DNA from: Betaproteobacteria bacterium
GTDB lineage: Bacteria; Pseudomonadota; Gammaproteobacteria; Burkholderiales; SG8-41
Reading direction: 5' to 3'
DNA length: 64,000 nt
NCBI GenBank assembly: GCA_052389535.1
Contig: JBQTHU010000117.1
Coordinates: 10,257 to 74,256 of the forward strand
Positions 1,840 to 15,532 of the stretch are shown in pieces. The stretch's first letter is position 1, and the number at the start of each line of letters is the position of its first letter. The position numbers and the translations under genes were made by a program. Below the pieces are notes generated by a model. It searched no databases and had not been told where the DNA came from. It saw only the letters and a program-made list of their open reading frames with translations.

Positions 1840-2523
1840 ATGGAGAAACTCCTAGTCATATCGCCGCATCTCGACGATGCCGTGTTCGCCTGCGGCGATC
1901 TGCTCGCCGTGCATCCCGGAAGCACCGTCGTCACGGTATTCGCCGGGGTCCCCGAGCGTTTCAGCGGCCTGACCGAATGGGACGCCGTGTGCGGCTTCGT
2001 GAGCGCGCGCGACGCCGTGCTGGGGCGCCGCCGCGAGGACGAGACGGCGCTCGCGGTGATCGGCGCGCACGCGCGATGGCTGCCGTTCCGCGATGCGCAG
2101 TACGGCGAGCCGGCGCGCAGCATAGACATTGCGAGAGCGCTGCGCCGTGCGGTCAGGGAGGTGGCTTGCGATACCGTGCTCCTGCCGCTCGGGCTTTTTC
2201 ACAGCGATCACGAAATCACCCACCACGCGTCCCTGGCGCTGCTGCGCGAGGGGCTGCCGCTGCGATGGATGTGTTACGAGGATACGTTCTACCGCTGCAT
2301 CCCCGGACTGGTGCAGCAGCGGATCGCGCGTCTTTCCCGGGGCCATCGGTTGTCGGCGCCGCTCGTCAACAGCAAGGGGCTCACGTCGGCCAAGCGCCAG
2401 GCGGTGTACTGTTACGCGAGCCAGTTGCGGGGCCTTTCTTCGGCCGGCCGCCCCGGGCATCTCGATGCGCTCACGGCGGAGCGCTACTGGCCGCTCGGCG
2501 TGGAAGAGGAGTCGCTGCTCTGA
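1840..2523 (+). CDS. PIG-L/LmbE family N-acetylglucosaminyl deacetylase
   Basis: The N-terminal ISPHLDDAVFACG (PHxDD) and HSDH motifs are present. SD aggagg lies upstream of ATG 1840. Confidence 0.85.
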   Translation: MEKLLVISPHLDDAVFACGDLLAVHPGSTVVTVFAGVPERFSGLTEWDAVCGFVSARDAVLGRRREDETALAVIGAHARWLPFRDAQYGEPARSIDIARALRRAVREVACDTVLLPLGLFHSDHEITHHASLALLREGLPLRWMCYEDTFYRCIPGLVQQRIARLSRGHRLSAPLVNSKGLTSAKRQAVYCYASQLRGLSSAGRPGHLDALTAERYWPLGVEEESLL

Positions 2524-3416
2524 GCACCCTGCACCCGAAGATCTCGGTGGTCATTCTGACGCACAACCGGGCGCACGAGGTTGTGAACACGGTGCGTCAT
2601 ATGAGCGCGCTGCCCGAGCAGCCGCGCCTCGTAGTGGTGGACAACGCATCCAGCGACGGCACGGCCGAGCGGCTGAGGGCGCTGTTTCCGGAAATCACGC
2701 TGATTCGCGTGCAGGAGAACATCGGGGCGGCCGCGCGCAATGCCGGCGTGCGCCGCGTCGCGACGCCTTACGTCGCGTTCTGCGACGACGACACGGTGTG
2801 GGCGCCCGGCTCGCTCGCCACAGCGTGCGAACTGCTCGATGCCTGGCCCGGTATCGCGGCGCTCACCGCGCACGTGAGGGTAGGCCCGGAGCGGCGGGAC
2901 GATCCGGCCTGCGCCATGATGGACGCGAGCCCGCTTCCATCCACCGGACTGCCGGGCAAGGCGGTGCTCGGCTTTCTCGCCGGCGCGTGCGTCTTCCGGC
3001 GCGACACGTTTCTCGCCGTGGGCGGTTACGAGCCGAGATTCCTGATCGGCGGCGAGGAGGCGCTCCTCGCGATCGACCTCGTCGCCCGCGGGCACGTGGT
3101 GGTGTATTCGAGGGACCTGACCGTCTACCACCATCCCTCGACCCGGCGCAACGTGGCGCAGCGCCAGCGGCATACCGTGCGGAATGCATTGTGGGTCGCA
3201 TGGCTGCGCCGGCCATTCTGGAGCGCGCTCGGCTGCAGCGCGGACATCATCTCTCGCGCAGCGTGCAAACGCTCGGCGCTTGCCGGACTGATGGACGCGG
3301 CGCGCGAGCTGCCGTGGGTATTGCGCACGCGTCAGGTGATCCCGCCGCGCGTCGAAGCACTGTGCGTCCTGCTGGACAACCGCCGGCGGTTGGAACTGCC
3401 GCTACGATCTTCCTGA
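2520..3416 (+). CDS. Family 2 glycosyltransferase
   Basis: Only the last 299 codons of the 756-aa ORF look like a protein: KISVVILTHNRAHEV..VVVDNASSDGT..FCDDD (GT2). The start is uncertain. It is either CTG 2520, which overlaps the PIG-L stop and has GAGGAG 8 nt upstream, or GTG 2547. Confidence 0.75.
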   Translation: MSTLHPKISVVILTHNRAHEVVNTVRHMSALPEQPRLVVVDNASSDGTAERLRALFPEITLIRVQENIGAAARNAGVRRVATPYVAFCDDDTVWAPGSLATACELLDAWPGIAALTAHVRVGPERRDDPACAMMDASPLPSTGLPGKAVLGFLAGACVFRRDTFLAVGGYEPRFLIGGEEALLAIDLVARGHVVVYSRDLTVYHHPSTRRNVAQRQRHTVRNALWVAWLRRPFWSALGCSADIISRAACKRSALAGLMDAARELPWVLRTRQVIPPRVEALCVLLDNRRRLELPLRSS

Positions 3417-3454
3417 AGCGGCTTTTTCCCGCAGCTTGAGTATGGCGCGCAGGC

Positions 3455-3670
3455 TCACTCGGCACGCGGCTTGCCGAACGCCTGCTCGGTCAGGATCGCG
3501 TCCTCGAAGCCGTGCACGCCATGCGTGCGTGCCGGATTCATGATCACGACATAGAGCACGCCGCTCTGCCCGATGGCGTGGTCCGTGGCGGCGCGCTGCA
3601 GAAGCGGCGCGAGAAAAGCAACCGCCTGCCGCCCCGCCGCGCGGTCGATGTAACGCTCCGAATACGACAT
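3455..3670 (-). CDS. Hypothetical 71-aa protein (possibly a truncated remnant)
   Basis: ATG ORF 12 nt downstream of the ABC fusion on the same strand. I recognise no family. It ends where the convergent plus block ends. Confidence 0.35.
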   Translation of the reverse strand: MSYSERYIDRAAGRQAVAFLAPLLQRAATDHAIGQSGVLYVVIMNPARTHGVHGFEDAILTEQAFGKPRAE

Positions 3671-3682
3671 GGCCTGCTCCTT

Positions 3683-6367
3683 TCATGCACCGGACTGCAT
3701 CGACCGGGCGGTCAGGTGCGCCACCGCGGTCAGCAGCTCCTCGGGCCTGACGGGCTTGCCGAGCTGCAGCTGAAATCCCGCGAGCAGCGCCCGCGTGCGG
3801 TCCTCGCCGCTCGCCAGTGCGACGGCCGGCATGCGTTTGGCAAGCCCGGTGCCGCGTCGTTCCTCGATGGCCCGCACGCGGCGGATCACGCTGTAGCCGT
3901 CCTCATCGGGCAGCGCGATATCCGAGATCAGCACATCGGGCCATTCTGCGGGGTCGAGCGTCTCGAGTTCGCGCACGGCATCCGTGGCGCGGCCGTAACT
4001 CAGCACGCGCGCGCCGTGCCCGGCGAGCGCCGCATGCAGCCGGTCGCGGTTTTCGTCGTCATCGATCAGCACCACGGTGAGACCGGCCATGTCGGGGGCC
4101 TCGCCCGGGCCGCCGTCCGCGACGCCGAGTTGCGGCCTCGCGAGAACCGGGGGAAGTGCACTTCGCAGCGGCAGCGTCATGGCATACGAGGTGCCGGTCG
4201 CATCCTCGATCTTTACCGTCACGAGATGGCCGCCGTGCTGCTCGGCGATCGCCCGGGCGCGCAGCGTGTCCGCAAGACGGGCCGTCGTTGCGCCCCGCCA
4301 CGGTGGTTGAGCGCTCGTCCCGGATGCAGCGCCCGTGTCGGTCACCGTCAACCGGGCCGTGCCATCGGTCTGGTCAACCCGGATCTCGACGCGTCCGCCG
4401 GGCACCGTCGCGCGTATCGCGTTCGCGCACAGGTCCCACACGGCCTGCTGCAGCAGCCCGGGGTCGCCCGCGACCGGTCCATCGGATGTAATGATGGCGT
4501 AGAGGTTGATTTGCCGCTCGTCGATCTCCGGACGCAGCCCGTCGACCACACCGGCAACGACGTTCGCCAGACTCACCGGCTGGAGCGCAAGCGTGCGCTC
4601 CACGCGGCGCAGCTCGCGTTCCTGCTGCTGTACCGACCACATCTGCGCATAGATGCCGCGTCGCTCGAGCAGCGCCCCGTGAGTGCCGCGCTCGACGATG
4701 CGGCCGTGCTCGAGCACCAGGATCTCGTGGGCGCCGACCACCGTGGACATGCGGTGCGCGATGACGAGCGTGGTACGATTCTCCGCGATGCGGTCCAGCT
4801 CGGCCTGGATCGCCTGCTCCGCGCGGGCGTCGAGCGCCGAGGTGGCTTCGTCGAAGATGATGATCGGCGGGTTCTTCAGTATCGCGCGGGCGATGGCGAT
4901 GCGCTGCTTCTCGCCGCCTGAAAGCTTCAGTCCGCGCTCGCCTACGACGGTTTCATACTGATCGGGCAGCGCCGCGACGAATTCATGCACGCGCGCCGCT
5001 CGCGCCGCCGCCAGCACTTCCTCGTGCGTCGCCCCGGGATGACCGTACGCGATGTTGAAGAAAATCGTCTCGTTGAAGAGCACCGTGTCCTGCGGCACGA
5101 TCCCCACGGCGCTGCGCAGGCTCTCCTGGGTGACCCGTCGCAGTGCCTGGCCGTCGATCTCGATCGCACCCTCGCCGGCATCGTAGAAGCGCAGCAGCAG
5201 GCGCGCGATGGTGGACTTGCCGGACCCGCTCCCGCCGACCACCGCGACCGTCTCGCCCGGCGCAATCCTGAAATCGACCTCATGCAGGATGCGGCGCCCG
5301 GCGTCGTAACCGAAGCTGACGTGGGTGAAGCGCACTTCACCGTGCCGCACGACGAGCGGCCGGGCGCCGGCCTCGTTCCGTATCTCGGGCTGCGCCGCGA
5401 GCAGAAAGAAGAGGCGCTCGATGTTGATCAGGGCGTCTTTCGCCTGCCGGAACACGAAGCCGAGCGCATTGAGGGGCAGGCACACCTGGATCACATAGGC
5501 ATTCACCAGCACGAGATCGCCGACCGTCATCGTGCCGCCTGCGACGCGCACGCTGGCATACAGCATGATGGCCGCCACGCCGACGGCGATGATGCCGCTC
5601 TGCCCGATGTGCAGCATCGAAAGGTGCCGCTGGTTGCGCACGCCTGCCTCGACCCAGTCGTGCATGATCGGTCCGAAGCGCGAGCCTTCGTACCGTTCGT
5701 TCGCGTAATACTTCACCGCCTCGTAGTTGAGCAGACTGTCGACGAGCCGGCTGTTGGCGCGGGAATCGAGCTCGTTCAGCGCGCGCTGATGGATCATGCG
5801 CTGTGCGGTGAAGGCGACGGTGAAAGTGGTGTACACCGCGAAGGTGAGCGTGATGATCATCGTCGGCCAGTAGCCGTAGCCGGCCGCAATGATCGCCATC
5901 ACCGCCACGATCTCCACCAGGGTGGGCACGATGGTGAAAAGCGCCACGCCGAGGAGAAAGCCGATGCCGGCGGTGCCGCGCTCGACTTCCCGGGTGAGGC
6001 GTCCGGTCTCGCGCTGCATGTGGAAGCGCGGCGTCAGCCCGAGCAGGTGTGCGAATACCCGGGCGGTGAAATCGGCGACCGTCTGCTGCGTTACGCGCGC
6101 GAACACGAGATCGCGCAGTTCGCCGAACAGCGTTCCGCCGAAGCGCAGCAGCGCATAAGCGATCAGCATGAAGACGGGCAGTATGTACGCCGTCTGCTCG
6201 GCGCTGAAGCCGTCGATGATCTGCTTGAGCGCAATCGGCACGGCGATGGTCGCCGCCTTGGCGAGCACCAGCAGCGCCAGCGCGGCGAGGATGCGGCCGC
6301 GAAAGCGCCACGCCGCGCTCGCCAGCACCCGCAGCACGTGGCGTCCGGTGGAGCGTTCCAGAGGCAT
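3683..6367 (-). CDS. ATM1/HMT1-type ABC exporter (TMD-NBD) fused to an HATPase_c-like domain and a response-regulator receiver domain
   Basis: A single 894-codon ORF. It carries DSLLNYEAVKYYANERYE (ATM1 hallmark), Walker A GGSGSGKST, signature LSGGEKQR and Walker B IIIFDEATSALD. These are followed by the kinase-like and receiver segments listed as the next two features. Confidence 0.9.
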   Translation of the reverse strand: MPLERSTGRHVLRVLASAAWRFRGRILAALALLVLAKAATIAVPIALKQIIDGFSAEQTAYILPVFMLIAYALLRFGGTLFGELRDLVFARVTQQTVADFTARVFAHLLGLTPRFHMQRETGRLTREVERGTAGIGFLLGVALFTIVPTLVEIVAVMAIIAAGYGYWPTMIITLTFAVYTTFTVAFTAQRMIHQRALNELDSRANSRLVDSLLNYEAVKYYANERYEGSRFGPIMHDWVEAGVRNQRHLSMLHIGQSGIIAVGVAAIMLYASVRVAGGTMTVGDLVLVNAYVIQVCLPLNALGFVFRQAKDALINIERLFFLLAAQPEIRNEAGARPLVVRHGEVRFTHVSFGYDAGRRILHEVDFRIAPGETVAVVGGSGSGKSTIARLLLRFYDAGEGAIEIDGQALRRVTQESLRSAVGIVPQDTVLFNETIFFNIAYGHPGATHEEVLAAARAARVHEFVAALPDQYETVVGERGLKLSGGEKQRIAIARAILKNPPIIIFDEATSALDARAEQAIQAELDRIAENRTTLVIAHRMSTVVGAHEILVLEHGRIVERGTHGALLERRGIYAQMWSVQQQERELRRVERTLALQPVSLANVVAGVVDGLRPEIDERQINLYAIITSDGPVAGDPGLLQQAVWDLCANAIRATVPGGRVEIRVDQTDGTARLTVTDTGAASGTSAQPPWRGATTARLADTLRARAIAEQHGGHLVTVKIEDATGTSYAMTLPLRSALPPVLARPQLGVADGGPGEAPDMAGLTVVLIDDDENRDRLHAALAGHGARVLSYGRATDAVRELETLDPAEWPDVLISDIALPDEDGYSVIRRVRAIEERRGTGLAKRMPAVALASGEDRTRALLAGFQLQLGKPVRPEELLTAVAHLTARSMQSGA
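3713..4084 (-). other. Receiver (REC) domain inside the ABC fusion (aa ~762-885)
   Basis: The acidic pair VVLIDDDEN, phospho-acceptor context VLISDIALPDEDG (Asp816, nt 3920-3922), AVALAS and QLGKP (conserved Lys) are all present. Confidence 0.8.
4163..4600 (-). other. Degenerate histidine-kinase catalytic (HATPase_c-like) domain inside the ABC fusion (aa ~590-735)
   Basis: The segment has N-box-like DLCANAIRAT, G1-like VTDTGA and a C-terminal AEQHGGHLVTV...MTLPL. There is no H-box: no His occurs between aa 564 and 710. The G2 GxGLG lid is absent. Confidence 0.6.
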
Positions 6368-6412
6368 GGAGGTCGGATCAGCCGGTGCGCATGCCGCGCC
6401 GGCGCTGCCGCC

Positions 6413-7411
6413 TCAGCTCGAGCCGCCGGAAAGGGCGTGCGCCGCGCCGGAAGAGACGGCGGCACGACTACCCAGCCGCGCTGCGAAGTAATCGATCGTG
6501 CGCATGAGTCCCTGCTGCAGCGATACGCGCGGCGTCCATTTCAGGATACTGCGCGCCGCCGCGATATCCGGACAGCGCCGCACCGGGTCGTCCTGAGGCA
6601 GCGGCTTGAACTCGACGCGCGAGGACGATCCCGTCATCCGAACCACGAGCCGGGCCAGTTCCAGAACGGTGCACTCCCGCGGATTCCCGAGATTGACCGG
6701 TGCATGAAGCTTTCCGGATCTCGACATCAGGCGCACCAGGCCCTCGACAAGGTCCGTGACATAGCAGAAGGACCGCGTCTGCGAGCCATCGCCGTACACC
6801 GTGACCGTTCCGCGGCGCAACGCCTGTACGATGAAGTTCGACACCACGCGGCCGTCATCGGCCTGCATGCGCGGCCCGTAGGTGTTGAATATGCGAGCAA
6901 TCCGCGCTTCGACGCCGCGCCGCCGCCGGTAATCGGAGAAGAAGGTCTCGGCGCAGCGTTTGCCTTCGTCGTAGCAGGAGCGCGGTCCGATGGGATTTAC
7001 GTGCCCCCAGTAGGTTTCGGACTGCGGATGCACCTGGGGGTCGCCGTAGACCTCGCTGGTGGACGCCTGCAGGATCTTCGCGCCCGTGCGCTGCGCGAGT
7101 TCGAGCAGGTTCATCGCGCCGCACACGCTGCTCTTGAGCGTCTGTATCGGGTCTTCCTGATATTGCACCGGTGACGCCGGACACGCGAGGTTGTAGATCT
7201 CGTCCGCCTTCGCGTCGAGCGGTTCGACGATGTCGTGGCGCACGAAGGTGAACCGCGAGCGGCCCATGAGATGCGCGATGTTCTCCAGCGCGCCGGTACG
7301 CAGGTTGTCGACGCACAGCACCTCGTATCCGGAGTCGAGCAGGCGCTCGCAAAGATGCGAGCCGAGAAAGCCGGCACCGCCGGTGACGAGGGCCCTGCGT
7401 TCAGCCGCCAA
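6413..7411 (-). CDS. UDP-glucuronate decarboxylase (UDP-xylose synthase type) / NAD-dependent epimerase-dehydratase
   Basis: [17 protein letters not shown], a YDEGKR catalytic region and overall UXS-like sequence. Both candidate starts are TTG (7432 or 7411). 7411 has GGAAAGGA 5 nt upstream. Confidence 0.85.
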
Positions 7412-7449
7412 TGTAATCCTTTCCGTGAGCAAAATCGCTGCGCTGATGA

Positions 7450-8397
7450 TCAGCCGCGCGCCACCGAAGCGAAGGCATCGCTCCAGTCGCGCGTGAAGCG
7501 CTCGATGCCGAACCGCTGCTGCGCGCTGGCGCGGGCGCCGCGGCCCAGCCTCTGCGCCAGTTCGGGGTCGGACAGCAGCGCCTGCATGCGCGCTATGAGC
7601 CTGTCCACGTCGGTATCGCAGTAACCGTTCACCCCGTCTCTGATCAGAGTCGGCATTTCGGTCGTCGCCAACGCCACGATGGGCAGCCCCACCATCATCG
7701 TTTCGATGACCGCGAGCCCGAGGCTCGTGTAGCGGATCGGGTTGAACAGGAAGCGATATTGCGCCGCAAAGCAGGGAAGATCGGCGTGCCGTATTTCACC
7801 CAGCCCGCCGCACTCCTCCGCACCCATGCCGACGAGATCGAGCGGAACGTGCCGCCGGACCTGATCGAATATATCGGCGCCCAGCCGCCGGCCCCGGCGT
7901 GCGAGGTGATTCACGATCACCAGCCCGCGCGCCACGTCGCCCGAGTAGCGAGCGCGCTCCGGCGCCACGACGCCGTGCTCGATCACCCGCGTCGGCGTGC
8001 GGCCGCTGTCCCACATCAGCCGGTTGAAGGGCGTCACGTGCACGAGCAAGACCTCCGGATCGTCCACCGGATGGCGCGTATCGGTGGGATGCTCGCGTGG
8101 CGGATCGTGCTCGAGATAGATGCGTGGAAGGCGCCGCTGCGCCGCGCTCAGATATTCGTACTGGTCGCGCAGATACTGCGCGTCGTCCTGGAACAGGATG
8201 CAGTCGAGCGGCTGCTCGCGCGCCGCGGCGACCGGCAGATCGTGCACGTTCGCGCCCCACGGCAGGTGTCCCCAGCGCCCGGTATAGCCGGGCGGGCGGT
8301 CCGGCTTCGACAGCACGTAGAACTCGTGCGGCACCTGCGCGAGGTAATAGAGGTAGCTGCCGTGGGTATGCCACGTGAGGATCTTCAGCGCACGCAT
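7450..8397 (-). CDS. Group 1 (GT-B) glycosyltransferase
   Basis: The internal start [15 protein letters not shown] was verified as cat at 8395-8397. The C-terminal [17 protein letters not shown] is a GT1 EX7E-like region. It overlaps the upstream GT9 stop by 13 nt. Confidence 0.8.
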
Positions 8398-9509
8398 GTC
8401 CGGGCGATGTCCCTCGGTGTGGATTTCCGCAGCATCGACCGCGCCTCGCCAATGACGGCGGCGGGGTGCACGCCGGTCGCGCACGGGTGGCCGATCGGAC
8501 AGATCTCGTACGCGCAAGGGCGACACTCAACCGGATGGTGCAGCACGCGGTGCCGGTCCGTGTCGAGCGGCGCCCAGCGCCGGAAGTCCGAGCCACTGCA
8601 TACGATGACGCTCGGTGTACGCACCGCCGCAGCGATATGTGAAACCCCCGTATCGTTCGCGACGAGCAGTCGCGCGTCCCCGATCAGCACGGCGAGCGCG
8701 CCGAGCGTCGTGGCGCCACTGAGATCGACTGCGGTATGGCGCATCGCTCCGAGGACGCTCCGTGCCAGCGCGCTTTCGCCCGCGGTGCCGGTGATGACGA
8801 CCTGGCAACCGTCGGACGCCAGCGCATCGGCCACCGCGGCGAAGCACTCGGCGCCCCAGCGCCGCGATGGCAGCTGCGAGCCGGGATGAACACACACATA
8901 GCGCGACGTGTCGATACCGCTTCGCGCGGCGAGCGCCGCCCACGCGTTGCGGTCATCTGCGCTCACCGGAAACTCCAGGCTGGTATCGCAGGCCGCGATG
9001 CCCAGTTCGCGCATCAGGCGCACGTAGCGCACGATTTCGTGCTCGTCTTCCCGCCACGGAAAAAACCGCTCGGGGTCCGGACCATAGCCGCGCGGCTCGT
9101 GATAGCCGGCGCACAGACGGGCGCCAAAGAGCGCCACGACAGCGTTGGTGAGCCGGCCGCTGCCGTGCAATTGCAGGGCCAGGTCATAGCGGCGGCCCTG
9201 CACCATGCTCAGGAACTCCGGAATCCGGCGCACCTCGCAACGTTCCGGCAGGCCGGGATAACCGGGAAATTCCGCGAAATCGTCGATGTAGCGTTTGAAG
9301 CGCGCGACAAACTCGCGCGCCCACGGCAGTCCCGCGAGCGTAATGCGCGCGCGCGGGCACGCCTGGCGCAGCGCGCGCAAAGCCGGCACCGCACACAGCA
9401 TGTCGCCAAGCTGCAGCGCGCGCAGGATGATGATGCTCCCCGGGGATGCGAGCCGGTTGTTCGTTCGCGCGCCGTCCGCGGATCGCTCACGCATGCCGCG
9501 CTCACGCAT
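8385..9509 (-). CDS. Family 9 glycosyltransferase (heptosyltransferase-like)
   Basis: IIILRALQLGDMLCAVPALRALR and the C-terminal Cys cluster CRPCAYEICPIGHPC are typical of GT9. The start is ATG 9509 or 9494; both lie in a 15-bp tandem duplication. Confidence 0.8.
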   Translation of the reverse strand: MRERGMRERSADGARTNNRLASPGSIIILRALQLGDMLCAVPALRALRQACPRARITLAGLPWAREFVARFKRYIDDFAEFPGYPGLPERCEVRRIPEFLSMVQGRRYDLALQLHGSGRLTNAVVALFGARLCAGYHEPRGYGPDPERFFPWREDEHEIVRYVRLMRELGIAACDTSLEFPVSADDRNAWAALAARSGIDTSRYVCVHPGSQLPSRRWGAECFAAVADALASDGCQVVITGTAGESALARSVLGAMRHTAVDLSGATTLGALAVLIGDARLLVANDTGVSHIAAAVRTPSVIVCSGSDFRRWAPLDTDRHRVLHHPVECRPCAYEICPIGHPCATGVHPAAVIGEARSMLRKSTPRDIARTCVR

Positions 9510-9514
9510 GCCGC
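9485..9514. repeat. Perfect 15-bp tandem duplication (gctcacgcatgccgc x2) spanning the stop/start junction of two genes
   Basis: Read directly: 9485-9499 equals 9500-9514. Each copy carries, on the minus strand, ATGCGTGA, which holds both an ATG and an out-of-frame TGA. Confidence 0.9.
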
Positions 9515-11226
9515 GTCTTCTCGAGGATGCAGGGGCCGATGACCAGCGCATCGAGCGGGGAGGTCATGAAACAGCGCACCGCGTCCTGCGGCGTGCACAC
9601 GATGGGCTCGCCCTGCGTGTTGAACGAGGTGTTGACCAGCACCGGCACGCCGGTGCGGCGTGCGAATGCCTCGATCAGCCGGTGGTAGAGCGGATGCTGG
9701 GCGCGGTTCACGGTCTGGATGCGCGCCGTCCCATCGACGTGGCAAACGCCCGGTATGCGGTCGGCGCGCTCGCGCACCACGTCGTGAATGAAGAGCATGA
9801 ATGGCGAGACGCCGGCGCCGACGAACCAGTCCGCAGCCTCCTCTTCCAGCACGACCGGCGCGACGGGGCGAAAGTCCTCGCGGTCCTTGATGGCGTTCAA
9901 CCGGTGCTGGATCTCCGCGGTGAGCGGAGAGGCGAGTATGGAGCGCGCCCCGAGCGCGCGCGGCCCGTATTCCATGCGCCCCTGGAACCAGCCGACGATG
10001 CGATCGGCGGCCAGTATCGCCGCCGTCTCTTCCGCAACGTCGTCCGCGCGGCGATACGGCAGCTTGGCGTAATCGAGCAGCGACCTGATGTCCTGCTCAG
10101 AGTACTCCGGCCCGAGGAACGCGTGCTCCATCTGCCACGAGCGCTCGCCGCGCGCGCGCCAATCGGTCCACAACGCCGCGCCGATTGCGGTGCCGGAATC
10201 GCCGGCAGCCGGCTGGACCCATACGCGGCGAAACAGGCCGGCATCGCGCACGCGCGCGTTCATCACGCAGTTGAGCGCGACCCCCCCTGCCAGGCACAGG
10301 TTGTCCGAGCCGGTCTCGTCCCTGAGCCAGCGCGCGAGCGCGACGACGGTCTCCTCCAGCACGAGCTGCAGCGAGCGCGCGATATCGAAGTGGCGCTCGC
10401 CGAACTCGGCGCCGCGTTCGCGTGCCGGCCCGAAGCGCTCGGCAAGCCGCAACGGTGCAATCGCGTACTGCCCGTTTCCGGACACTTGCACGATTTCACG
10501 GAAAGCGTCGGCGTACACCGGCTTGCCGTAGGAGGCGAGCGCCATCACCTTGTATTCGTCGGAGGAATGCAGGAATCCCAGGTGGCGCGTGACCTCCTCG
10601 TACAGCAGGCCCAGCGAATGCGGGACGCAAACCTGGCCGATCCGCCGGTATTCACGGCCCGTGTAATGTCCGTAGCAGGTACTGGCGCGCTCGCCGCGGC
10701 CGTCGAGCGTCATCACCGCCGTGTCTTCGAACGGCGCGGCAAGGAACGCGCTCGCCTCGTGCGACAGGTGATGGTCCACGAATCTCCAGTTCCACCTGCG
10801 TTGCGTCCTCGCACGCCTGAACCGCCGCTTCAGATGAAACGGCGCACCGTCTATCAATTGCCGTTCGGCGTTCACCACGTAGGAGAGCGACAGCGGCTCC
10901 CACGGTGAGAGCCAATCCGCGGAAGTATCATGCGCGCTCGGCTCGAGCGGCAGCGTGATCGTCGCATCGTGCCGGCGCTCGCCCAGCACCACGCCGGGGT
11001 TGAAGGAATAGGCGACGTAATCCAGATCGGAAAGCTCGATGCCTGCCGCGCCGAGACAGTAATCGATTGCGTGAAACGGCAGTTCCCAGGTGGTGAAAGG
11101 AACCGGCCGCTTGCCATGTTTGACCCGCGTAAAGCGCTCCTCTTCTGCAGCGGCCACCACTTTCCCGTCGCGGACGAGGCAGGCAGCGGAGTCGTGAAAT
11201 ACGGCGTTGATGCCGAGCGTCAGCAT
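9502..11226 (-). CDS. NodU/CmcH-family O-carbamoyltransferase
   Basis: The start MLTLGINAVFHDSAACLV was verified as cat at 11224-11226. The FVDHHLSHEASAF metal motif is present and the length (574 aa) is typical of the family. Confidence 0.9.
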   Translation of the reverse strand: MLTLGINAVFHDSAACLVRDGKVVAAAEEERFTRVKHGKRPVPFTTWELPFHAIDYCLGAAGIELSDLDYVAYSFNPGVVLGERRHDATITLPLEPSAHDTSADWLSPWEPLSLSYVVNAERQLIDGAPFHLKRRFRRARTQRRWNWRFVDHHLSHEASAFLAAPFEDTAVMTLDGRGERASTCYGHYTGREYRRIGQVCVPHSLGLLYEEVTRHLGFLHSSDEYKVMALASYGKPVYADAFREIVQVSGNGQYAIAPLRLAERFGPARERGAEFGERHFDIARSLQLVLEETVVALARWLRDETGSDNLCLAGGVALNCVMNARVRDAGLFRRVWVQPAAGDSGTAIGAALWTDWRARGERSWQMEHAFLGPEYSEQDIRSLLDYAKLPYRRADDVAEETAAILAADRIVGWFQGRMEYGPRALGARSILASPLTAEIQHRLNAIKDREDFRPVAPVVLEEEAADWFVGAGVSPFMLFIHDVVRERADRIPGVCHVDGTARIQTVNRAQHPLYHRLIEAFARRTGVPVLVNTSFNTQGEPIVCTPQDAVRCFMTSPLDALVIGPCILEKTRHA

Positions 11227-11237
11227 GCAGCCTCTCT

Positions 11238-12383
11238 TCAGTGGACGGTGGCGTACAGCGCCAGTGGACCGGTCGCGGAAGGCTCGCCGATGCCCGCTGA
11301 AGCGGGCTCGTTCAGCAGCCGCTCGGCCGCGGCCGCCACCGTTTCCGGCGCCACCCCGGCGAGACAGGCGTGATGCCCCGCAGGGCATACGCTGCGGTAG
11401 CAGAACCGGCACGGCACGTCGCAGAACAGCACTTCGCTCCGCACCTGCCACGGCGCGTGCTGGGGATTGGTAAGCGCGTAGAGATCGACGACCGGCGTGC
11501 CGAGTGCAGCGGCGATATGGACCGGCCCGGTGTTGTTCGCGACGAGGAGGGACGCCCGCTCCAGCAGCGCACCCAGTTGCGCGACGTCGAGTTGTCCGGC
11601 AAGCGAGTACGAGGCGCGCGCCATCGCCTGGCGTATGCCTTCCACCAGATGCGTCTCTTCCGCACTGCCGGTGAATACGACGGCCGCTTCAGAAAGACGC
11701 TGCAAAAGAAGGTCCATCGCCTGTGCATAGCGCAGCGCCGGGTAGCGGCGGGAGGCCGCGCTCGCGCCGGGATGTACGGCGATGAGCGTCGCGCGCTCGT
11801 CGATGCCGGCACGCGCCAGCGCGCGCTTCGTCGATGCCCACGCGCACGGCGGCACGGCAAAGGAAAGCCGCTCATCGTCGGTGCGGCAGCCTATCGTCGC
11901 GGCGAGATCGAGATGGCGCCGCACCTCGTGCCGTATGCGCTCGAGCGGTTCCGGGTCCCGGACCCAGTCGGTCAACAGCCCGTAGGGATTCTCGCGGCAG
12001 TGCGCGAGCCGCAGCGGAATACCCGCGAGATAGCACAGGTATGCGGCAGGCAGCGGATTCTGGCTGTATACCGTGAAGATCACGGCCGCATCGAACCGCC
12101 GGCGCTTCAGTTCCTCGATGAGCGCCGCATCGTGCGGCGGAGCGCTCCCGGCCGGCTTCATCCACGGCGCATCGAAGGCGATCGCCTCGTCCACGTCCGG
12201 AATGAACGGCGCAACCGCGGCGCCGGAGCGGGAGGTGAGGAGCGTCAGCCTGCGTCCGGCCGCGCCCCGCCTCAGCGCCCGCAGCGCCGGCGTCGTCATC
12301 AGCACGTCGCCCATGCTGTCGAGCCGCACGCACAACACCCGATCGGCGCGGCGCCAGCCCAGCGTGCCCGGCGTGCCGTTCAT
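11238..12383 (-). CDS. Family 9 glycosyltransferase (heptosyltransferase-like)
   Basis: The start is MNGTPGTL (cat at 12381-12383). RVLCVRLDSMGDVLMTTPALRAL and the C-terminal CRFCYRSVCPAGHHAC are GT9-like. It forms an ATGA overlap with the upstream gene. Confidence 0.85.
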   Translation of the reverse strand: MNGTPGTLGWRRADRVLCVRLDSMGDVLMTTPALRALRRGAAGRRLTLLTSRSGAAVAPFIPDVDEAIAFDAPWMKPAGSAPPHDAALIEELKRRRFDAAVIFTVYSQNPLPAAYLCYLAGIPLRLAHCRENPYGLLTDWVRDPEPLERIRHEVRRHLDLAATIGCRTDDERLSFAVPPCAWASTKRALARAGIDERATLIAVHPGASAASRRYPALRYAQAMDLLLQRLSEAAVVFTGSAEETHLVEGIRQAMARASYSLAGQLDVAQLGALLERASLLVANNTGPVHIAAALGTPVVDLYALTNPQHAPWQVRSEVLFCDVPCRFCYRSVCPAGHHACLAGVAPETVAAAAERLLNEPASAGIGEPSATGPLALYATVH

Positions 12384-12973
12384 TGCGCCGCGCGACTCCC
12401 GGCGCGGCTCGCGAGGATGATCTGCGCCGCGGCCAGGAGGTCCTCGGCGAGCGCCTCGGGCCAGCGTTGGCCGCTCATGTCCCACTCCGTCTCGTTGCCG
12501 TTGTCGATGAGGATGGTGCGGCAGCGTGCGCGCCGCCCCGCCTCGATGTCGTCCAGGATGTCGCCCACCATCCAGGAGCGCGTAAGCTCGATGCCGTGCT
12601 CGCGCGCCGCCTGTGTGAGCAAGCCGCTGTCGGGCTTGCGACAGGCGCAATGGACGGCATAGTCCGGCAATGCTCCATGCGGATGGTGCGGGCAGTAGTA
12701 AAAACCTTCGAGCCTGACCCCGCGCTCGCCGAGTTCCTCGCTGATGTGGCGCTCCACCCTGCTCAATGCCTGCTCGGAGAACCGGCCGAGCGCGACGCCG
12801 GGCTGATTCGATACAACGAACAGGCGGAATCCCCGGTCGGCGAGCAGGCGCAAACCCTCGACGGCGCCCGGTGTGAAACGGATGAATGCCGGATCGACGT
12901 TGTACGGCACGTTCTCGATCAGCGTGCCATCCTTGTCGAGAAACACGGCGCGCCCGCCCTGCTTCACGGCCAT
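12380..12973 (-). CDS. HAD-IIIA phosphatase, D,D-heptose 1,7-bisphosphate phosphatase (GmhB)-like
   Basis: AVFLDKDGTLI (DxDGT), VVSNQ, the Zn motif YYCPHHP...CACRKP and MVGD are present. The start MAVKQGG was verified (cat at 12971-12973). Confidence 0.85.
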   Translation of the reverse strand: MAVKQGGRAVFLDKDGTLIENVPYNVDPAFIRFTPGAVEGLRLLADRGFRLFVVSNQPGVALGRFSEQALSRVERHISEELGERGVRLEGFYYCPHHPHGALPDYAVHCACRKPDSGLLTQAAREHGIELTRSWMVGDILDDIEAGRRARCRTILIDNGNETEWDMSGQRWPEALAEDLLAAAQIILASRAGSRAAQ

Positions 12974-13689
12974 GACGTCTCCCGCATCGGCAGCACCATT
13001 ATCTCCGGTATGACGGTCTCGTCGGGCTGCGTCAGAATGAATTTCACCGCGGCGGCGACGTGGGCGGGATCCTGCAGCACGCCCGGATCGATATCGGGAA
13101 AGCGATCGAGCAGAAACGGCGTCCTCATGCCTCCCGCGATCACCGCGCTCACCTTGATCCGGCGCGGACGCAGTTCCGCATGGAGCGCATGCGTGAGCCC
13201 GAGCAGCCCCCACTTGCTCGCGTGATACGCGGAGGCGTTGGGCCAGGCGCGGCGCGCAGCGGTCGAGGCGATGTTGACGATATGCCCGCCGCCCTGCCGT
13301 TCCATGACTGCACCCGCGAACTTGGAAAGCAGGAACGGACCGCGCAGGTTGGTCGCAATGACGGCGTCCCACTGCGCAACGCTCAGTTCACTGAGCGGCA
13401 GGGTGTGGTCCACCGCCGCGTTATTGACGAGGATGTCCAGTTTCCCGTAGCGCTCCCGCACTTGCGCTACGCACGTTCGCGCGCTGTCTTCGTTGCGCAC
13501 GTCGAGCTTCCACGCCGCGCAGCGGCCACCGTCGCGCTCGAGCGTCCCGGCGAGCGCGCGGGCCCGCTCCAGGTCGAGATCCGCAATGGCCACGAGCGCA
13601 TGCTCGCCCACGAGCGCCCGCGCGATCTCCGCGCCCAGACCGCGCCCGGCACCGCTGACGATCGCGACGCGTCCCTCGAGCATGCTCAT
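12964..13689 (-). CDS. Short-chain dehydrogenase/reductase
   Basis: VSGAGRGLG cofactor motif, NNAAV and the YHASK catalytic motif. It overlaps the downstream gene by 10 nt and the upstream gene by 4 nt. Confidence 0.85.
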   Translation of the reverse strand: MSMLEGRVAIVSGAGRGLGAEIARALVGEHALVAIADLDLERARALAGTLERDGGRCAAWKLDVRNEDSARTCVAQVRERYGKLDILVNNAAVDHTLPLSELSVAQWDAVIATNLRGPFLLSKFAGAVMERQGGGHIVNIASTAARRAWPNASAYHASKWGLLGLTHALHAELRPRRIKVSAVIAGGMRTPFLLDRFPDIDPGVLQDPAHVAAAVKFILTQPDETVIPEIMVLPMRETSWP

Positions 13690-14996
13690 CGCGCGGAGAC
13701 CCGGGTTGGCTGCTGAAACGCGCTGCCCGCGGAGGCGTGCTTGCCGCCGGCGAATTCCGCGCTGTTGCGGGGCGCCAGCTCGTCGTACAACGCCGCCATG
13801 GAGCGTGCGACGCGCTCCCAGGTGAAGTGCTTCTGTACCCGCTTCAGGCCGTTACGGCCGAACCGCGCGAGCAGGGGAGGATTGCGATAGAGGTCGGCCA
13901 GCCGGCTCGCCAGCGCGTCCGGATCGTTGGGCGGGATGAGATAGCCGGTAACGCCGTCCACCACGCTGTGCTTGATGCCGCCCACCGCGGAGCCCACGAC
14001 CGGCGTCCCGCACGCCATGGCTTCGAGCGGCGTGATGCCGAACGGCTCGTACCAGGGCGTGGTCACGAACACGTCGGCGGCGCTGTAATAGAGTTTGAGC
14101 ACTTCGCGGCTGCGCCGCCCGGTGAAAAGCGTCTGCTCGCCGACGCCTTCCGACCGCGCGATCTCACGCAGCCGCGCGAGTTCCGGAGTCGCCGCGCAAT
14201 CCGGCGCATCGGTGTTTCCCCCTATGATCACCAGGCGCGGCCGCATCCCGCTGCACCGCGCGAGGCGGCCCAGCGCGCGTATCACGTTGTCGACACCCTT
14301 GCGCGGCACCATGCGCCCGATGTGCAGCACGATGCGCTCGTCGCTGTCGAAACCGAGCAGGCGCCGCGCGAAGGCGCGCCGTACGGGCCAGAATTCCCGC
14401 GCGTCAAAACCGCACGGGATGGTGCGGATCTTGTCGCGCTCCGCGCCATACAGCGAAATCAAGTCGAGGCAGTCCTGCGGACATTCCGCGATGATGGCGT
14501 CGGCATGCTCTACCGTTCGGTCCTCGATGTCGATGCGCTCATCCGGGAACTGGTCGGCTTCCCGCTGGTGCAGGCGTCTCACGCGCCCGAGCGCATGAAA
14601 CGTGACGACGAACGGTATGCCGAACAGCTGCTTCAGGCCGAGCGCCACCATGCCCGACATGAAGAAATTGGCATGCACGACGTCATAGCCGGCTTCCCGG
14701 TCGCAGAACTGGGCGACGCGCGCGGTGAACTCCGGCATGACCGGAAGCATCGACTCCTTGCGCAGGGCGTCCTCGGGACCGGCGCGCACGTGCACGACGC
14801 GCAGGCCTTTCGCCACTTCGACGACTTCGGGCAGCGCAGGATTGTCGCGCCGGGTGAAGACGTCGAGCTCGTATCCCAGAGCGTGAACGTGACGCGCGAT
14901 GCTGGCTACATAGATGTTCTGGCCGCCGCTGTCGATGCCGCCGGCAACCGCCAGCGGGGAAGCGTGGTCACTGATGACTGCGATCCTGCTCGCCAT
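13686..14996 (-). CDS. Group 1 glycosyltransferase, sucrose-phosphate-synthase-like GT-B
   Basis: ISDHASPLAVAGGIDSGGQNIYV is an SPS-like N-domain and EPFGITPLEAMACGTPVV is the GT1 signature. SD AGGAG lies 5 nt upstream of ATG 14996. Confidence 0.85.
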   Translation of the reverse strand: MASRIAVISDHASPLAVAGGIDSGGQNIYVASIARHVHALGYELDVFTRRDNPALPEVVEVAKGLRVVHVRAGPEDALRKESMLPVMPEFTARVAQFCDREAGYDVVHANFFMSGMVALGLKQLFGIPFVVTFHALGRVRRLHQREADQFPDERIDIEDRTVEHADAIIAECPQDCLDLISLYGAERDKIRTIPCGFDAREFWPVRRAFARRLLGFDSDERIVLHIGRMVPRKGVDNVIRALGRLARCSGMRPRLVIIGGNTDAPDCAATPELARLREIARSEGVGEQTLFTGRRSREVLKLYYSAADVFVTTPWYEPFGITPLEAMACGTPVVGSAVGGIKHSVVDGVTGYLIPPNDPDALASRLADLYRNPPLLARFGRNGLKRVQKHFTWERVARSMAALYDELAPRNSAEFAGGKHASAGSAFQQPTRVSAR

Positions 14997-15093
14997 AGTA
15001 CTCCTGTATTACCGTTGGCATCGAAAGCGACGTAACTGGAGGTCTCGCCACAGCGGGCGCCCATGCGGGCGGAAAGAACGGCGCATGGGGTGC

Positions 15094-15109
15094 AGCAAAC
15101 CGCATGCCA
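15094..15109 (-). promoter_or_regulatory. Sigma-54-type -24/-12 promoter candidate for the glycan operon
   Basis: The minus-strand sequence is TGGCATGCGGTTTGCT, against the consensus TGGCACG-N4-TTGCW. The GG to GC spacing is correct. It lies about 87-100 nt upstream of ATG 14996. Confidence 0.5.
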
Positions 15110-15324
15110 CTTCTCGAAGCACACTGCGGCCCGCGCGCGCCAGACGCCGTGCGCCGCGTGAAGCGGTGCTCGCTCGATACAAGCCGCTTTAACTGCCGCC
15201 AGCTCGCCCCGCCGCCGCCCGCACGGAGCAGCCTCGTCGTGGAAGCAGTTTTTCCCGTGCCGCTGCGTAAGATTTACCGGGCAGAGCGTTCGCTGCTTTT
15301 CCGCGGCACGGGCAGCGCCGCACT

Positions 15325-15340
15325 CGGCATGTCCATTGCT
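15325..15340 (+). promoter_or_regulatory. Weaker sigma-54-type -24/-12 candidate upstream of the metallothionein-SDR gene
   Basis: The plus-strand sequence is CGGCATGTCCATTGCT. Spacing is correct but the first base is C instead of T. It ends 25 nt before ATG 15365, which would leave a very short leader without an SD. Confidence 0.3.
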
Positions 15341-15364
15341 TCTGCGCAGGCGAGTCGCAACCCA

Positions 15365-15532
15365 ATGACGCAGCGTTCGGACCCATCGAAATGCAGGCAT
15401 GCCACGTGCGAATGCACCGTGGAATCGAGTCTCGCCTACTGCTGCGAATACTGCGCGCGGGCCGACCAGCAGGAGACCGGCGCCTACCAGCACCATGCAT
15501 GCGAATGCGGCCATCCTGAATGCAGCCAGGAG
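15365..15532 (+). other. Cys/His-rich metallothionein-like domain (8 Cys, 4 His in the first 53 aa)
   Basis: The pattern C-x-H-x2-C-x-C ... C-C-x2-C-A ... C-x-C-G-H-x2-C parallels SmtA as I recall it (KCACEPCLCNV ... YYCSEACA ... GCGHTGCNC). Confidence 0.65.

What the first reader, a model, noticed from the sequence alone, without database searches (positions are those of the whole stretch)
3683..6367. ATM1-type ABC exporter fused to a degenerate histidine-kinase ATPase domain and an intact receiver domain
One uninterrupted 894-codon ORF carries four modules.
- aa ~20-320: an ABC-B type membrane domain with the ATM1/HMT1 hallmark DSLLNYEAVKYYANE.
- aa ~345-580: a complete NBD (Walker A, LSGGEKQR, Walker B).
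- aa ~590-735: a segment that aligns to the catalytic half of histidine kinases (DLCANAIRAT, VTDTGA, AEQHGGHLVTV..TLPL). It has no DHp/H-box (no His between aa 564 and 710) and no G2 GxGLG lid.
- aa ~762-885: a receiver domain with every phosphorylation residue in place (DD pair, Asp816 in VLISDIALP, Ser in AVALAS, Lys in QLGKP).

A receiver domain attached to an exporter implies that transport could be switched by phosphorylation from a kinase encoded elsewhere. The kinase-like remnant might serve as a docking or dimerisation module. The gene is also the penultimate cistron of the sigma-54-type-headed glycan operon. No partner kinase, Hpt protein or enhancer-binding protein is encoded in the window. 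I do not know of a characterised transporter with this architecture.
Basis: partly seen in the sequence, partly recalled or inferred. Interest (0 to 1): 0.75.

Follow-up and report, generated by a model that had tools for sequence, protein, structure and literature searches.

The report
ABC exporter fused to kinase-remnant and receiver
This gene encodes a membrane export pump of the ATM1 type that carries a dead histidine-kinase ATPase domain and a phosphorylatable receiver domain on its tail; the fusion is real and conserved in many Betaproteobacteria, but nobody has characterised it, so it may be a pump controlled by two-component signalling.

Summary
Window 3683-6367(-) is one 894-codon ORF, and ABC_membrane, ABC_tran, HATPase_c and Response_reg all score above Pfam's cut-offs. 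The ABC half is ATM1-type (AtATM3 and NaAtm1, E about 1e-153).

The tail is the CA+REC half of a PAS-type hybrid histidine kinase. It has no DHp/His, no G2 box and a shortened lid.

- The canonical receiver Thr/Ser position is Ala852, not Ser853, so four of the five receiver residues are in place.
- The architecture is not rare. At least 120 protein clusters and about 55 species carry it (Bordetella, Achromobacter, Azoarcus, Aromatoleum, Piscinibacter and others), all under generic names. Eight literature searches found no description of it.
- The true last cistron is a DUF336-fold partner gene, which here carries a 211-bp internal deletion.

The sigma-54 claim is supported. The -24/-12 element at 15095-15109 is the best-conserved block upstream of the operon, and similar elements sit directly upstream of the ABC gene in other genomes.

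Best reading: a sigma-54-expressed exporter linked to a heptose/carbamoyl glycan cluster, whose ATPase cycle is gated by phosphorylation of Asp816 by a kinase encoded elsewhere. The gating is inferred, not shown.

Verdict: a new variant of a known kind, of moderate to high interest.

The parts
3683..6367 (-). Complete ORF (894 codons plus stop): ATM1-type ABC half-transporter, then linker helix, pseudo-CA (HATPase_c-like) domain, and receiver domain
5483..6289 (-). Transmembrane domain (aa 27-295, ABC_membrane). It holds the ATM1 hallmark DSLLNYEAVKYYANE (aa 210-224) and the pocket residues R190, Q194, H253 and R307
   Evidence: Pfam. Alignment to NaAtm1 and AtATM3. Family invariants
4628..5335 (-). 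Nucleotide-binding domain (aa ~345-580). It has Walker A GGSGSGKST, the signature LSGGEKQR, Walker B with E507, and H538, all invariant in the family
4586..4654 (-). Conserved C-terminal helix (aa 572-594; family consensus YAQMWxLQQQQxELExAERxLAxQPVNL). It continues the ATM1 C-terminal helix and superposes on DHp helix alpha-2 of histidine kinases. It has no His and no H-box
4163..4582 (-). Pseudo-catalytic (CA, HATPase_c-like) domain, aa 596-735. The fold is kept, but the G2 box is absent and the lid is about 14 residues short. The N-box Asn and G1 Asp are kept in this clade but not across the family
   Evidence: Pfam. Conservation. AF2 model. Foldseek hits to ShkA, ThkA, DivL and RetS
4079..4162 (-). 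Variable, low-confidence Pro/Ala-rich linker (aa 736-763)
   Evidence: pLDDT below 50. Indel-rich columns
3716..4078 (-). Receiver domain (aa 764-884). It has D769, D770, D816 (codon 3920-3922) and K871. The canonical Thr/Ser position is A852 and the switch position (K-3) is Q868
3455..3670 (-). 71-codon stub of the conserved partner gene, which is 150-187 aa elsewhere and has a DUF336/GlcG-like fold. An internal 211-bp deletion relative to the 89%-identical relative shifts the frame and creates the stop
15095..15109 (-). Sigma-54-type -24/-12 element TGGCATGCGGTTTGC, about 86-100 nt upstream of the ATG (14996) of the first operon gene
   Evidence: It is the best-conserved block of the intergenic region compared with L002. 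No sigma-70-like site was found in 3000-15400
6413..14996 (-). Upstream cistrons of the same operon, in order: MshA-like GT4 (13686-14996), SDR (12964-13689), GmhB-like HAD-IIIA phosphatase (~12380-12970), GT9 (~11238-12380), NodU-like carbamoyltransferase (~9502-11226), GT9 (~8385-9500), GT1-family glycosyltransferase (~7450-8379), and a 4,6-dehydratase/epimerase (6413-7432). Start codons are approximate
   Evidence: The same set is linked to the ABC gene in 20 or more other loci

Best explanation
The gene encodes a homodimeric ATM1-type ABC exporter. Its C-terminal NBD helix runs straight into the CA+REC half of a PAS-type hybrid histidine kinase.

The kinase part cannot phosphorylate anything. 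It has no DHp/His and no G2 box, its lid is shortened, and its ATP-binding residues are not conserved in the family. It therefore serves as a structural or docking module.

The receiver keeps the acid pocket, Asp816 and Lys871. It is probably phosphorylated in trans by a separately encoded kinase. In Rhodocyclales a PAS hybrid kinase and an NtrC-type activator lie next to the gene.

The protein is made from a sigma-54 promoter together with a heptosyltransferase/carbamoyltransferase glycan cluster and a small DUF336-fold partner.

Proposed mechanism: phosphorylation of Asp816 changes how the CA-REC tail packs against the NBD dimer or its C-terminal helices. This gates ATP hydrolysis and export of a product of the linked cluster.

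Shown: the architecture, its conservation, the decay of catalytic motifs, the retention of receiver residues, the gene linkage and the sigma-54 elements.
Inferred: trans-phosphorylation, gating of transport and the substrate.
For: - Domains score above Pfam cut-offs.
- The ABC half is ATM1-type by sequence, at about 1e-153.
- ATPase motifs are invariant.
- The C-terminal model has pLDDT 85.7. Its best fold match is the full-length hybrid kinase ShkA across CA+REC (E 4e-17), followed by CA domains of ThkA, DivL and RetS.
- A profile of the tail finds PAS/GAF hybrid kinases as its nearest non-family relatives. The tail is 32% identical to the CA+REC of the neighbouring PAS hybrid kinase in Azoarcus and Aromatoleum.
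- Receiver residues: D816 in 42/42, K871 in 40/42, D769 in 39/42 and D770 in 37/42. In contrast, the N-box Asn is kept in 13/42 and the G1 Asp in 25/42.
- Conserved linkage to the small partner in 39 of 66 loci and to the GT4-SDR-HAD-GT9-CarbT-GT2-GT9 set in 20-32 loci.
- Sigma-54 elements lie at -24 to -48 of the ABC start in 8 of 56 loci, against about 0.12 expected. One sits at the operon head here and in L002.
- rpoN paralogs and enhancer-binding proteins are adjacent in several loci.
Against: - No kinase, enhancer-binding protein or rpoN is present in this 64-kb window, so the phosphodonor is unknown here.
- The canonical receiver Thr/Ser is Ala in most members, so the usual Thr/aromatic output coupling cannot operate.
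- One natural member (L061) lacks the receiver altogether yet keeps the pseudo-CA and the partner gene. The receiver is therefore dispensable in at least one lineage.
- Gene order relative to the glycan cluster varies, and in Rhodocyclales the cluster is not adjacent, so the substrate assignment is weak.
- No dimer model and no experiment are available.
Confidence: 0.45

Rival explanations
1. The transporter acts as a sensor or phosphate sink. The exporter's conformational cycle, which reports substrate flux, exposes or hides the receiver. The receiver then competes with the NtrC-type activator's receiver for phosphoryl groups from the shared hybrid kinase. The protein therefore feeds back on sigma-54 transcription of its own regulon rather than being the regulated target.
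For: - The tail derives from a hybrid kinase of the type encoded next to it, alongside a REC-containing enhancer-binding protein.
- The neighbouring hybrid kinase has no Hpt domain, which fits a branched or sink arrangement.
- Loss of the Thr/Ser switch residue suits a receiver that only accepts phosphate.
- Sigma-54 promoters drive the gene itself.
- Established knowledge offers a precedent for ABC transporters reporting flux to kinases (BceAB-BceS).
Against: - The kinase and activator lie next to the gene only in a minority of loci, with an enhancer-binding protein in 13 and the PAS kinase in 7 of 66.
- No co-variation or interaction data exist.
- All ATPase and pocket residues are under strong conservation, as expected for a working exporter, although this does not exclude a dual role.
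Confidence: 0.25
2. The tail is a phosphorylation-independent structural remnant. The CA-REC tail is a dimerisation or partner-docking scaffold, for example for the DUF336-fold protein, and Asp816 is never phosphorylated.
For: - The CA domain is clearly a pseudo-enzyme.
- The Thr/Ser is missing.
- A REC-less member exists that keeps the pseudo-CA and the partner gene.
- The partner gene is tightly linked, in 39 of 66 loci. DUF336 proteins are known ligand-binding accessory proteins, such as EfgA and PduO-C.
Against: Asp816 is invariant, and the acid pair and Lys871 are nearly invariant, across relatives only 52-89% identical. Meanwhile the neighbouring CA motifs drifted freely. That pattern indicates selection on phosphorylation chemistry. 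Pseudo-receivers usually lose one or more of these residues (established knowledge).
Confidence: 0.18
3. Assembly or sequencing artefact: two or three separate genes (ABC exporter, kinase fragment, response regulator) are joined by a missed stop or frameshift.
For: The window comes from a metagenome-assembled genome, and the adjacent small gene does carry a 211-bp deletion.
Against: The same continuous ORF of 870-1014 aa (nearly all 870-950) is found in at least 120 independent clusters and in finished genomes. The junction helix is among the most conserved parts of the tail.
Confidence: 0.01

Closest known systems
ATM1/ABCB7/ATM3/NaAtm1 exporters (ATM1-type ABC-B half-transporters)
   Same: - Full-length similarity over TMD and NBD, E about 1e-153.
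- The hallmark LLNYE(T/A)VKY motif.
- The C-terminal helix after the NBD.
- Pocket residues equivalent to NaAtm1 Y195, R206, Q272 and R323 are kept.
   Different: - It carries a 310-residue CA-REC extension.
- Two of the four glutathione-pocket hallmarks listed in PMC6424863 are replaced family-wide: R210 to Q194 and N269 to H253.
- It is expressed from a sigma-54 promoter with a glycan cluster rather than in a metal or Fe-S context.
Hybrid histidine kinases of the PAS-HisKA-HATPase-REC type (for example ShkA, or the neighbour kinase in Azoarcus L001 3851-6895)
   Same: The CA+REC order, fold and sequence match. The linker helix aligns with DHp alpha-2.
   Different: There is no DHp alpha-1 or phospho-accepting His, no G2 box, a short lid and non-conserved N/G1 residues. 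The sensor part is replaced by an entire ABC exporter.
Pseudokinase CA domains (DivL, RetS)
   Same: The CA fold is retained without the need for catalysis. Both appear among the fold and sequence hits.
   Different: Those proteins keep a DHp bundle that binds receivers. This one has only a single helix per subunit.
Phospho-regulated ABC exporters: M. tuberculosis Rv1747 (FHA domains, Ser/Thr kinase input) and CFTR (R domain). Cited from general knowledge, not tested here
   Same: The concept of a fused cytosolic module that lets phosphorylation control an ABC exporter.
   Different: The chemistry and modules differ: Asp phosphorylation of a two-component receiver, rather than pThr recognition or PKA sites.
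BceAB-BceS type transporter-kinase signalling complexes. Cited from general knowledge; 8g3a appears among the fold hits
   Same: An ABC transporter is physically coupled to two-component machinery.
   Different: BceAB and BceS are separate proteins with an active kinase. Here the kinase part is fused and inactive, and a receiver is present.
DUF336/GlcG family (EfgA, PduO C-terminal domain, NahX, ORFY), for the partner gene
   Same: The predicted fold (pLDDT 93.9) matches these and only these with probability 0.98 or higher.
   Different: No Pfam or NCBIfam sequence match, even at E of 10 or below. The ligand is unknown, and the gene is deleted internally in this window.

Membership tests
ATM1-type ABC exporter (ATM1/ABCB7/NaAtm1) | Best full-length similarity is to ATM1-group proteins rather than to other ABC-B exporters | tested here: met
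   The top 11 solved-structure hits are AtATM3, NaAtm1, ABCB7 and a fungal Atm1-like protein (519-485 bits). ABCB6, ABCB1, ABCB4 and ABCB19 follow at 472 bits or below.
ATM1-type ABC exporter (ATM1/ABCB7/NaAtm1) | Conserved glutathione-pocket residues (NaAtm1 R206, R210, N269 and R323, as listed in PMC6424863) | tested here: not met
   R190 and R307 are kept. R210 is replaced by Q194 and N269 by H253. All four are invariant in 42 family members. The substrate is probably not a plain glutathione conjugate.
ATM1-type ABC exporter (ATM1/ABCB7/NaAtm1) | Catalytically competent NBD (Walker A/B, catalytic Glu, signature, H-loop) | tested here: met
   GGSGSGKST, LSGGEKQR, D506-E507 and H538 are invariant.
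Histidine kinase (HisKA/HATPase_c) | DHp domain with a phospho-accepting His (H-box) | tested here: not met
   There is no HisKA hit and no His at aa 564-710. In the family, only position 588 is His, and only in 7 of 42 members, without H-box context.
Histidine kinase (HisKA/HATPase_c) | ATP-binding N, G1 and G2 boxes and an ATP lid | tested here: not met
   N649 and D677-x-G679 are present in this protein. Family-wide, the Asn is kept in 13/42 and the Asp in 25/42. G2 is absent everywhere. The lid is short and modelled with low confidence.
Histidine kinase (HisKA/HATPase_c) | CA alpha/beta sandwich fold | tested here: met
   HATPase_c scores 38.5 bits, above the 26.4 cut-off. Foldseek target-normalised TM-score is 0.76-0.79 to ThkA and MprB CA domains.
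Two-component receiver domain (Response_reg) | Acid pocket DD, phospho-accepting Asp and conserved Lys | tested here: met
   D769, D770, D816 and K871 are conserved in 39, 37, 42 and 40 of 42 members.
Two-component receiver domain (Response_reg) | Conserved Thr/Ser at the end of beta-4 | tested here: not met
   Alignments to 3t6k and 8avv place it at A852. The family has A in 26, G in 6, D in 4 and S in 3.
Two-component receiver domain (Response_reg) | Actual phosphorylation by a cognate kinase | not testable with these tools
   This requires phosphotransfer assays. No kinase is present in the window.
Sigma-54-dependent operon | A -24 GG / -12 GC element at the correct spacing upstream of the first gene, conserved in relatives | tested here: met
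   TGGCATGCGGTTTGC at 15095-15109(-). The same place in L002 is the longest conserved intergenic block. Elements are enriched upstream of the ABC gene in other loci.
Sigma-54-dependent operon | A cognate enhancer-binding protein | tested here: inconclusive
   None is present in this window. Enhancer-binding proteins are within 10 kb in 13 related loci and rpoN paralogs in 6.
DUF336/GlcG (partner gene) | Sequence match to PF03928 or a related model | tested here: not met
   No Pfam hit at E of 10 or below and no NCBIfam hit at E of 1e-5 or below.
DUF336/GlcG (partner gene) | Fold match | tested here: met
   The top 15 PDB fold hits are all DUF336 proteins, with probability 0.98-1.00 and TM-score 0.47-0.62.

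The most novel reading that the evidence does not exclude
This family is the first two-component-gated ABC exporter. A sigma-54 stress programme in Betaproteobacteria builds an unknown heptose-containing, carbamoylated glycoconjugate on an MshA-type primer. It exports the product through an ATM1-derived pump. Receiver phosphorylation, and possibly a small-molecule-sensing DUF336 partner docked on the dead kinase domain, switches the pump's ATPase or reports its flux back to the regulon.
Probability: 0.3. Interest if true: 0.8.

Novelty: new variant of a known kind. Interest (0 to 1): 0.6.

Why it matters
Very few bacterial ABC exporters are known to be controlled after translation, and none was found here that is controlled by Asp phosphorylation. 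This conserved family joins a complete, apparently active ATM1-type pump to a receiver domain. That would make the control of export by two-component signalling directly testable, through D816 alleles, BeF3- and phosphotransfer profiling.

Suitable organisms are genetically tractable: Bordetella bronchiseptica, Achromobacter, Azoarcus olearius and Aromatoleum.

The finding also shows how a hybrid kinase can be recycled into a non-catalytic regulatory tail. In addition, it flags an unstudied sigma-54-linked stress and glycan island with a dedicated exporter whose substrate pocket differs from the glutathione-binding ATM1 pocket.

Tried and rejected
- **The window protein's own contig.** An exact look-up of P0001 found no record, so nothing beyond the window could be read.
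- **The 94-aa ORF 3402..3686 as last cistron.** It is in the wrong frame relative to the conserved downstream gene and has no Pfam hit. Rejected as spurious.
- **Sequence-based naming of the small partner.** Pfam at E of 10 or below and NCBIfam gave nothing. Only the fold search identified it.
- **Literature.** Eight full-text searches, one paper checked for mention of the fusion and one read for the ATM1 pocket residues turned up no description of the fusion or the island. Database names are all generic.
- **Chance sigma-54 matches.** The pattern count in the whole window is no higher than in shuffles (7 against 5.4). The promoter claim therefore rests on position and conservation, not on the count.
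- **An ABC exporter fused to a complete kinase as an evolutionary intermediate.** None appears in the top 150 profile hits.
- **Artefact or frameshift reading.** Rejected on conservation.
Full report
**1. Observation**

The minus-strand ORF 3683..6367 is real and uninterrupted, 894 codons with an ATG start. All four modules pass Pfam's curated cut-offs:
- ABC_membrane, aa 27-295, E 4.7e-31.
- ABC_tran, aa 361-510, E 2e-32.
- HATPase_c, aa 634-735, E 1.7e-9, 38.5 bits against a cut-off of 26.4.
- Response_reg, aa 765-882, E 9.2e-10, 39.1 bits against a cut-off of 30.2.

NCBIfam sees only generic ABC-B exporter models, all below their equivalog cut-offs. Against solved structures, the ABC half is closest to the ATM1 group: AtATM3 7n58 at 2e-154, NaAtm1 4mrn at 2e-152, then ABCB7. 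ABCB6, ABCB1 and ABCB4 follow. The quoted motif DSLLNYEAVKYYANE is at aa 210-224. The ATPase motifs are intact and invariant in relatives.

**2. The tail**

Residues 585-894 align in one piece to the CA+REC part of a bacteriophytochrome-response-regulator fusion, and to the DivL and ZraS CA domains.

An AlphaFold2 model of aa 571-894, built on a 19-sequence alignment, has mean pLDDT 85.7. It contains, in order:
- One long helix, aa 572-594.
- A CA-type alpha/beta sandwich whose lid segment is short and low-confidence.
- A disordered linker of about 30 residues.
- A canonical (beta-alpha)5 receiver.

Its best structural match is the full-length hybrid kinase ShkA across 305 columns (E 4e-17). 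CA domains of ThkA and MprB (target-normalised TM-score 0.76-0.79), DivL and RetS follow. Matches to HK853 extend into DHp helix alpha-2, which corresponds to the helix that follows the NBD here. No HisKA hit exists and there is no His between aa 564 and 710.

In a 42-sequence family alignment, the catalytic residues of the CA domain are not conserved. The N-box Asn is N in 13, H in 11, R in 6, Q in 4 and W in 3. The G1 Asp is D in 25, H in 13 and E in 4. G2 is absent and the lid is full of indels. Fold-defining positions (GDP 634-636, R659, E661, G713, P733) and the linker helix are nearly invariant. The CA module is therefore a pseudo-enzyme throughout the family. The window's own clade still has N649 and D677-T-G679.

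The receiver behaves the opposite way. D816 is kept in 42/42, K871 in 40/42, D769 in 39/42 and D770 in 37/42. However, the canonical Thr/Ser at the end of beta-4 is Ala852 (A in 26, G in 6, D in 4, S in 3).

**3. Origin of the tail**

A profile of the tail was searched against 1.84 billion representative proteins. It finds the fusion family first, matching from profile position 1. At 50% identity the family has only about two full-length representatives, so it is compact.

The search then finds thousands of hybrid kinases, matching from about position 22. The best of these are cytoplasmic PAS/GAF-HisKA-HATPase-REC kinases. In Azoarcus and Aromatoleum, exactly such a kinase lies a few genes upstream of the fusion gene and is 32% identical to the tail over about 300 residues. 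No ABC exporter fused to a complete kinase was seen.

**4. Distribution**

The same architecture is present in at least 120 clusters at 90% identity, with 52-89% identity to the query over 94-100% of its length in 118 of the 119 relatives listed (one aligns over 74%). Members include Azoarcus olearius, Aromatoleum spp., Bordetella bronchiseptica, Piscinibacter, Methylibium, Pigmentiphaga, Usitatibacter and Zoogloea.

A truncated scan of one genome per species found 61 loci, about 55 with the full tail. These add Achromobacter, Pusillimonas, Roseateles, Rhizobacter, Ideonella, Azohydromonas, Comamonas, Hydrogenophaga, Methyloversatilis, Solimonas and a Pseudomonas MAG.

All source names are generic. 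Eight full-text literature searches, plus two papers read, found no description. The fusion is therefore neither an artefact nor rare, but it appears uncharacterised.

**5. Genomic context**

In the window, the gene is the ninth cistron of a tightly packed minus-strand operon:
1. MshA-like GT4
2. SDR
3. GmhB-like HAD-IIIA phosphatase
4. GT9
5. NodU-like carbamoyltransferase
6. GT9
7. GT1-family glycosyltransferase
8. 4,6-dehydratase/epimerase
9. The ABC fusion
10. The small gene

A convergent GT2 / PIG-L / GT2 / UDP-glucose dehydrogenase set lies downstream.

A census of 66 loci by tblastn shows the small gene near the ABC gene in 39. It also finds GT4 (32), SDR (31), GT9 (24), HAD (22), GT2 (21) and carbamoyltransferase (20) within 10 kb. 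The most frequent order is ABC, small gene, GT4, SDR, HAD, GT9, CarbT, GT2, GT9.

Other loci, in Rhodocyclales and Bordetella, place the gene among BON, PRC-barrel, DUF883, MgtC and BrkB genes, NtrC-type activators and rpoN paralogs. Here the flanking genes include a hemerythrin-like protein with a weak match to the PA2171 persister family, and a PRK06701-type stress SDR. The setting is a stress-type island with a glycan-assembly module.

**6. Sigma-54**

TGGCATGCGGTTTGC at 15095-15109(-) lies about 86-100 nt upstream of the GT4 start codon. The raw count of such patterns in the window is not above chance. Three other lines support the site:
- It is the longest conserved block when the intergenic region is aligned with the 74%-identical locus L002.
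- No sigma-70-like promoter is predicted anywhere in 3000-15400.
- In loci where the ABC gene heads the operon, a GG-N10-GC element with at most one mismatch lies 24-48 nt upstream of the extrapolated start in 8 of 56 loci. The background rate of 8.75e-5 per nucleotide predicts about 0.12.

No enhancer-binding protein, rpoN or second CA/REC-like sequence is present in the 64-kb window.

**7. The partner gene**

The ORF the mechanical list offers after the ABC gene (3402..3686) is in the wrong frame. The conserved downstream gene starts at 3670, preceded by an AAGGAG ribosome-binding site, and stops after 71 codons.

In the two closest relatives (89% and 84% identity) it is 159 aa and intact. 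DNA alignment shows a clean 211-bp internal deletion in the window.

The family (18 homologs, all annotated as hypothetical) has no Pfam or NCBIfam match. Its model (pLDDT 93.9, pTM 0.89) matches only DUF336/GlcG proteins: EfgA, ORFY, NahX, the PduO C-terminal haem domain and 4nkp. These are small-ligand-binding accessory proteins.

**8. The substrate pocket**

A paper on the Rhodobacter homolog PexA lists the glutathione-pocket hallmarks, which correspond to NaAtm1 R206, R210, N269 and R323 (PMC6424863). In the phmmer alignment these map to R190, Q194, H253 and R307, and all four are invariant in the family. Two of the four hallmarks are thus replaced by fixed, different residues. This argues for a related but different substrate. 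Which product of the linked cluster it is cannot be decided here.

**9. Mechanism**

The most economical reading has four parts:
- The exporter is working, since its ATPase and pocket residues are under strong constraint.
- Its ATM1-type C-terminal helices continue into a non-catalytic CA module.
- A flexible linker tethers a receiver whose phosphorylation chemistry is under selection.
- Because there is no His in cis and the CA is dead, phosphorylation must come in trans.

I rank the readings as follows:
- Phospho-gating of the NBD cycle: 0.45.
- The exporter reports flux or acts as a phosphate sink for the sigma-54 activator pathway: 0.25.
- A phosphorylation-independent scaffold: 0.18.
- An assembly artefact: 0.01.

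Two points count against a simple gating model. The missing Thr/Ser switch residue is one. The other is a natural REC-less member (L061 8210..10516, 768 aa, still followed by the partner gene). That member also shows the pseudo-CA has a role of its own, plausibly docking the DUF336 partner or a kinase DHp. None of these steps is demonstrated.

**10. Verdict**

The thing is a new variant of a known kind: an ATM1-type ABC exporter with a recycled hybrid-kinase tail. It is widespread but unstudied. Interest is 0.6.

Noticed in passing
window 3455-3670 (-): The conserved small partner gene (DUF336/GlcG-like fold) has a clean 211-bp internal deletion compared with the 89%-identical relative L067 5403-5882, which leaves a 71-aa stub. 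It is intact (159 aa) in L066 and L067. This is either a real pseudogene in this MAG or an assembly error.
   Followed up: yes
window 3402-3686 (-): The 94-aa ORF that overlaps the ABC stop codon (ATGA) is in the wrong frame relative to the conserved downstream gene. It has no family hits and is a spurious high-GC ORF.
   Followed up: yes
L061 8210-10516 (Burkholderiaceae MAG PROT-4): A natural family member of 768 aa ends directly after the pseudo-CA domain, with no receiver. The small partner gene still follows it (10548-11051).
   Followed up: partly
window 5447-5800 (-), codons for R190, Q194, H253 and R307: Two of the four glutathione-pocket hallmark residues of ATM1-type exporters are replaced (R to Q194, N to H253). 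The replacements are invariant across 42 family members, which suggests a different substrate.
   Followed up: partly
window 13686-14996 (-), 12380-12970 (-), 1840-2523 (+): An MshA-like GT4 (3.5e-86 to the mycothiol MshA model, below its cut-off), a HAD-IIIA phosphatase and a PIG-L-family deacetylase share the island with an exporter of the thiol-conjugate (ATM1) type. This resembles the first steps of mycothiol/bacillithiol-type GlcN-X synthesis. No cysteine ligase was seen.
   Followed up: no
window 16522-16968 (-) and 15584-16474 (+): Divergently placed upstream of the operon are a hemerythrin-like protein with a weak match to the PA2171 ribosome-binding persister family, and a PRK06701-type SDR (436.8 bits, above its cut-off). 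The same pair lies upstream of the operon in L002. This suggests a stress or dormancy island.
   Followed up: partly
L003, L016, L025, L032, L033, L045: An rpoN paralog lies within 10 kb of the fusion gene in six loci, and sigma-54 enhancer-binding proteins in thirteen. Several BON/PRC genes there also have perfect or near-perfect -24/-12 elements, for example L003 12809 TGGCACAGCGCTTGC.
   Followed up: partly
L001 3851-6895; L004 5204-8194; also L013, L021, L035: In Rhodocyclales a PAS-PAS-HisKA-HATPase-REC hybrid kinase without Hpt and an NtrC-type activator lie a few genes upstream of the fusion gene. The kinase's CA+REC is the closest local relative of the fusion's tail (32% identity). It is a candidate phosphodonor.
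   Followed up: partly
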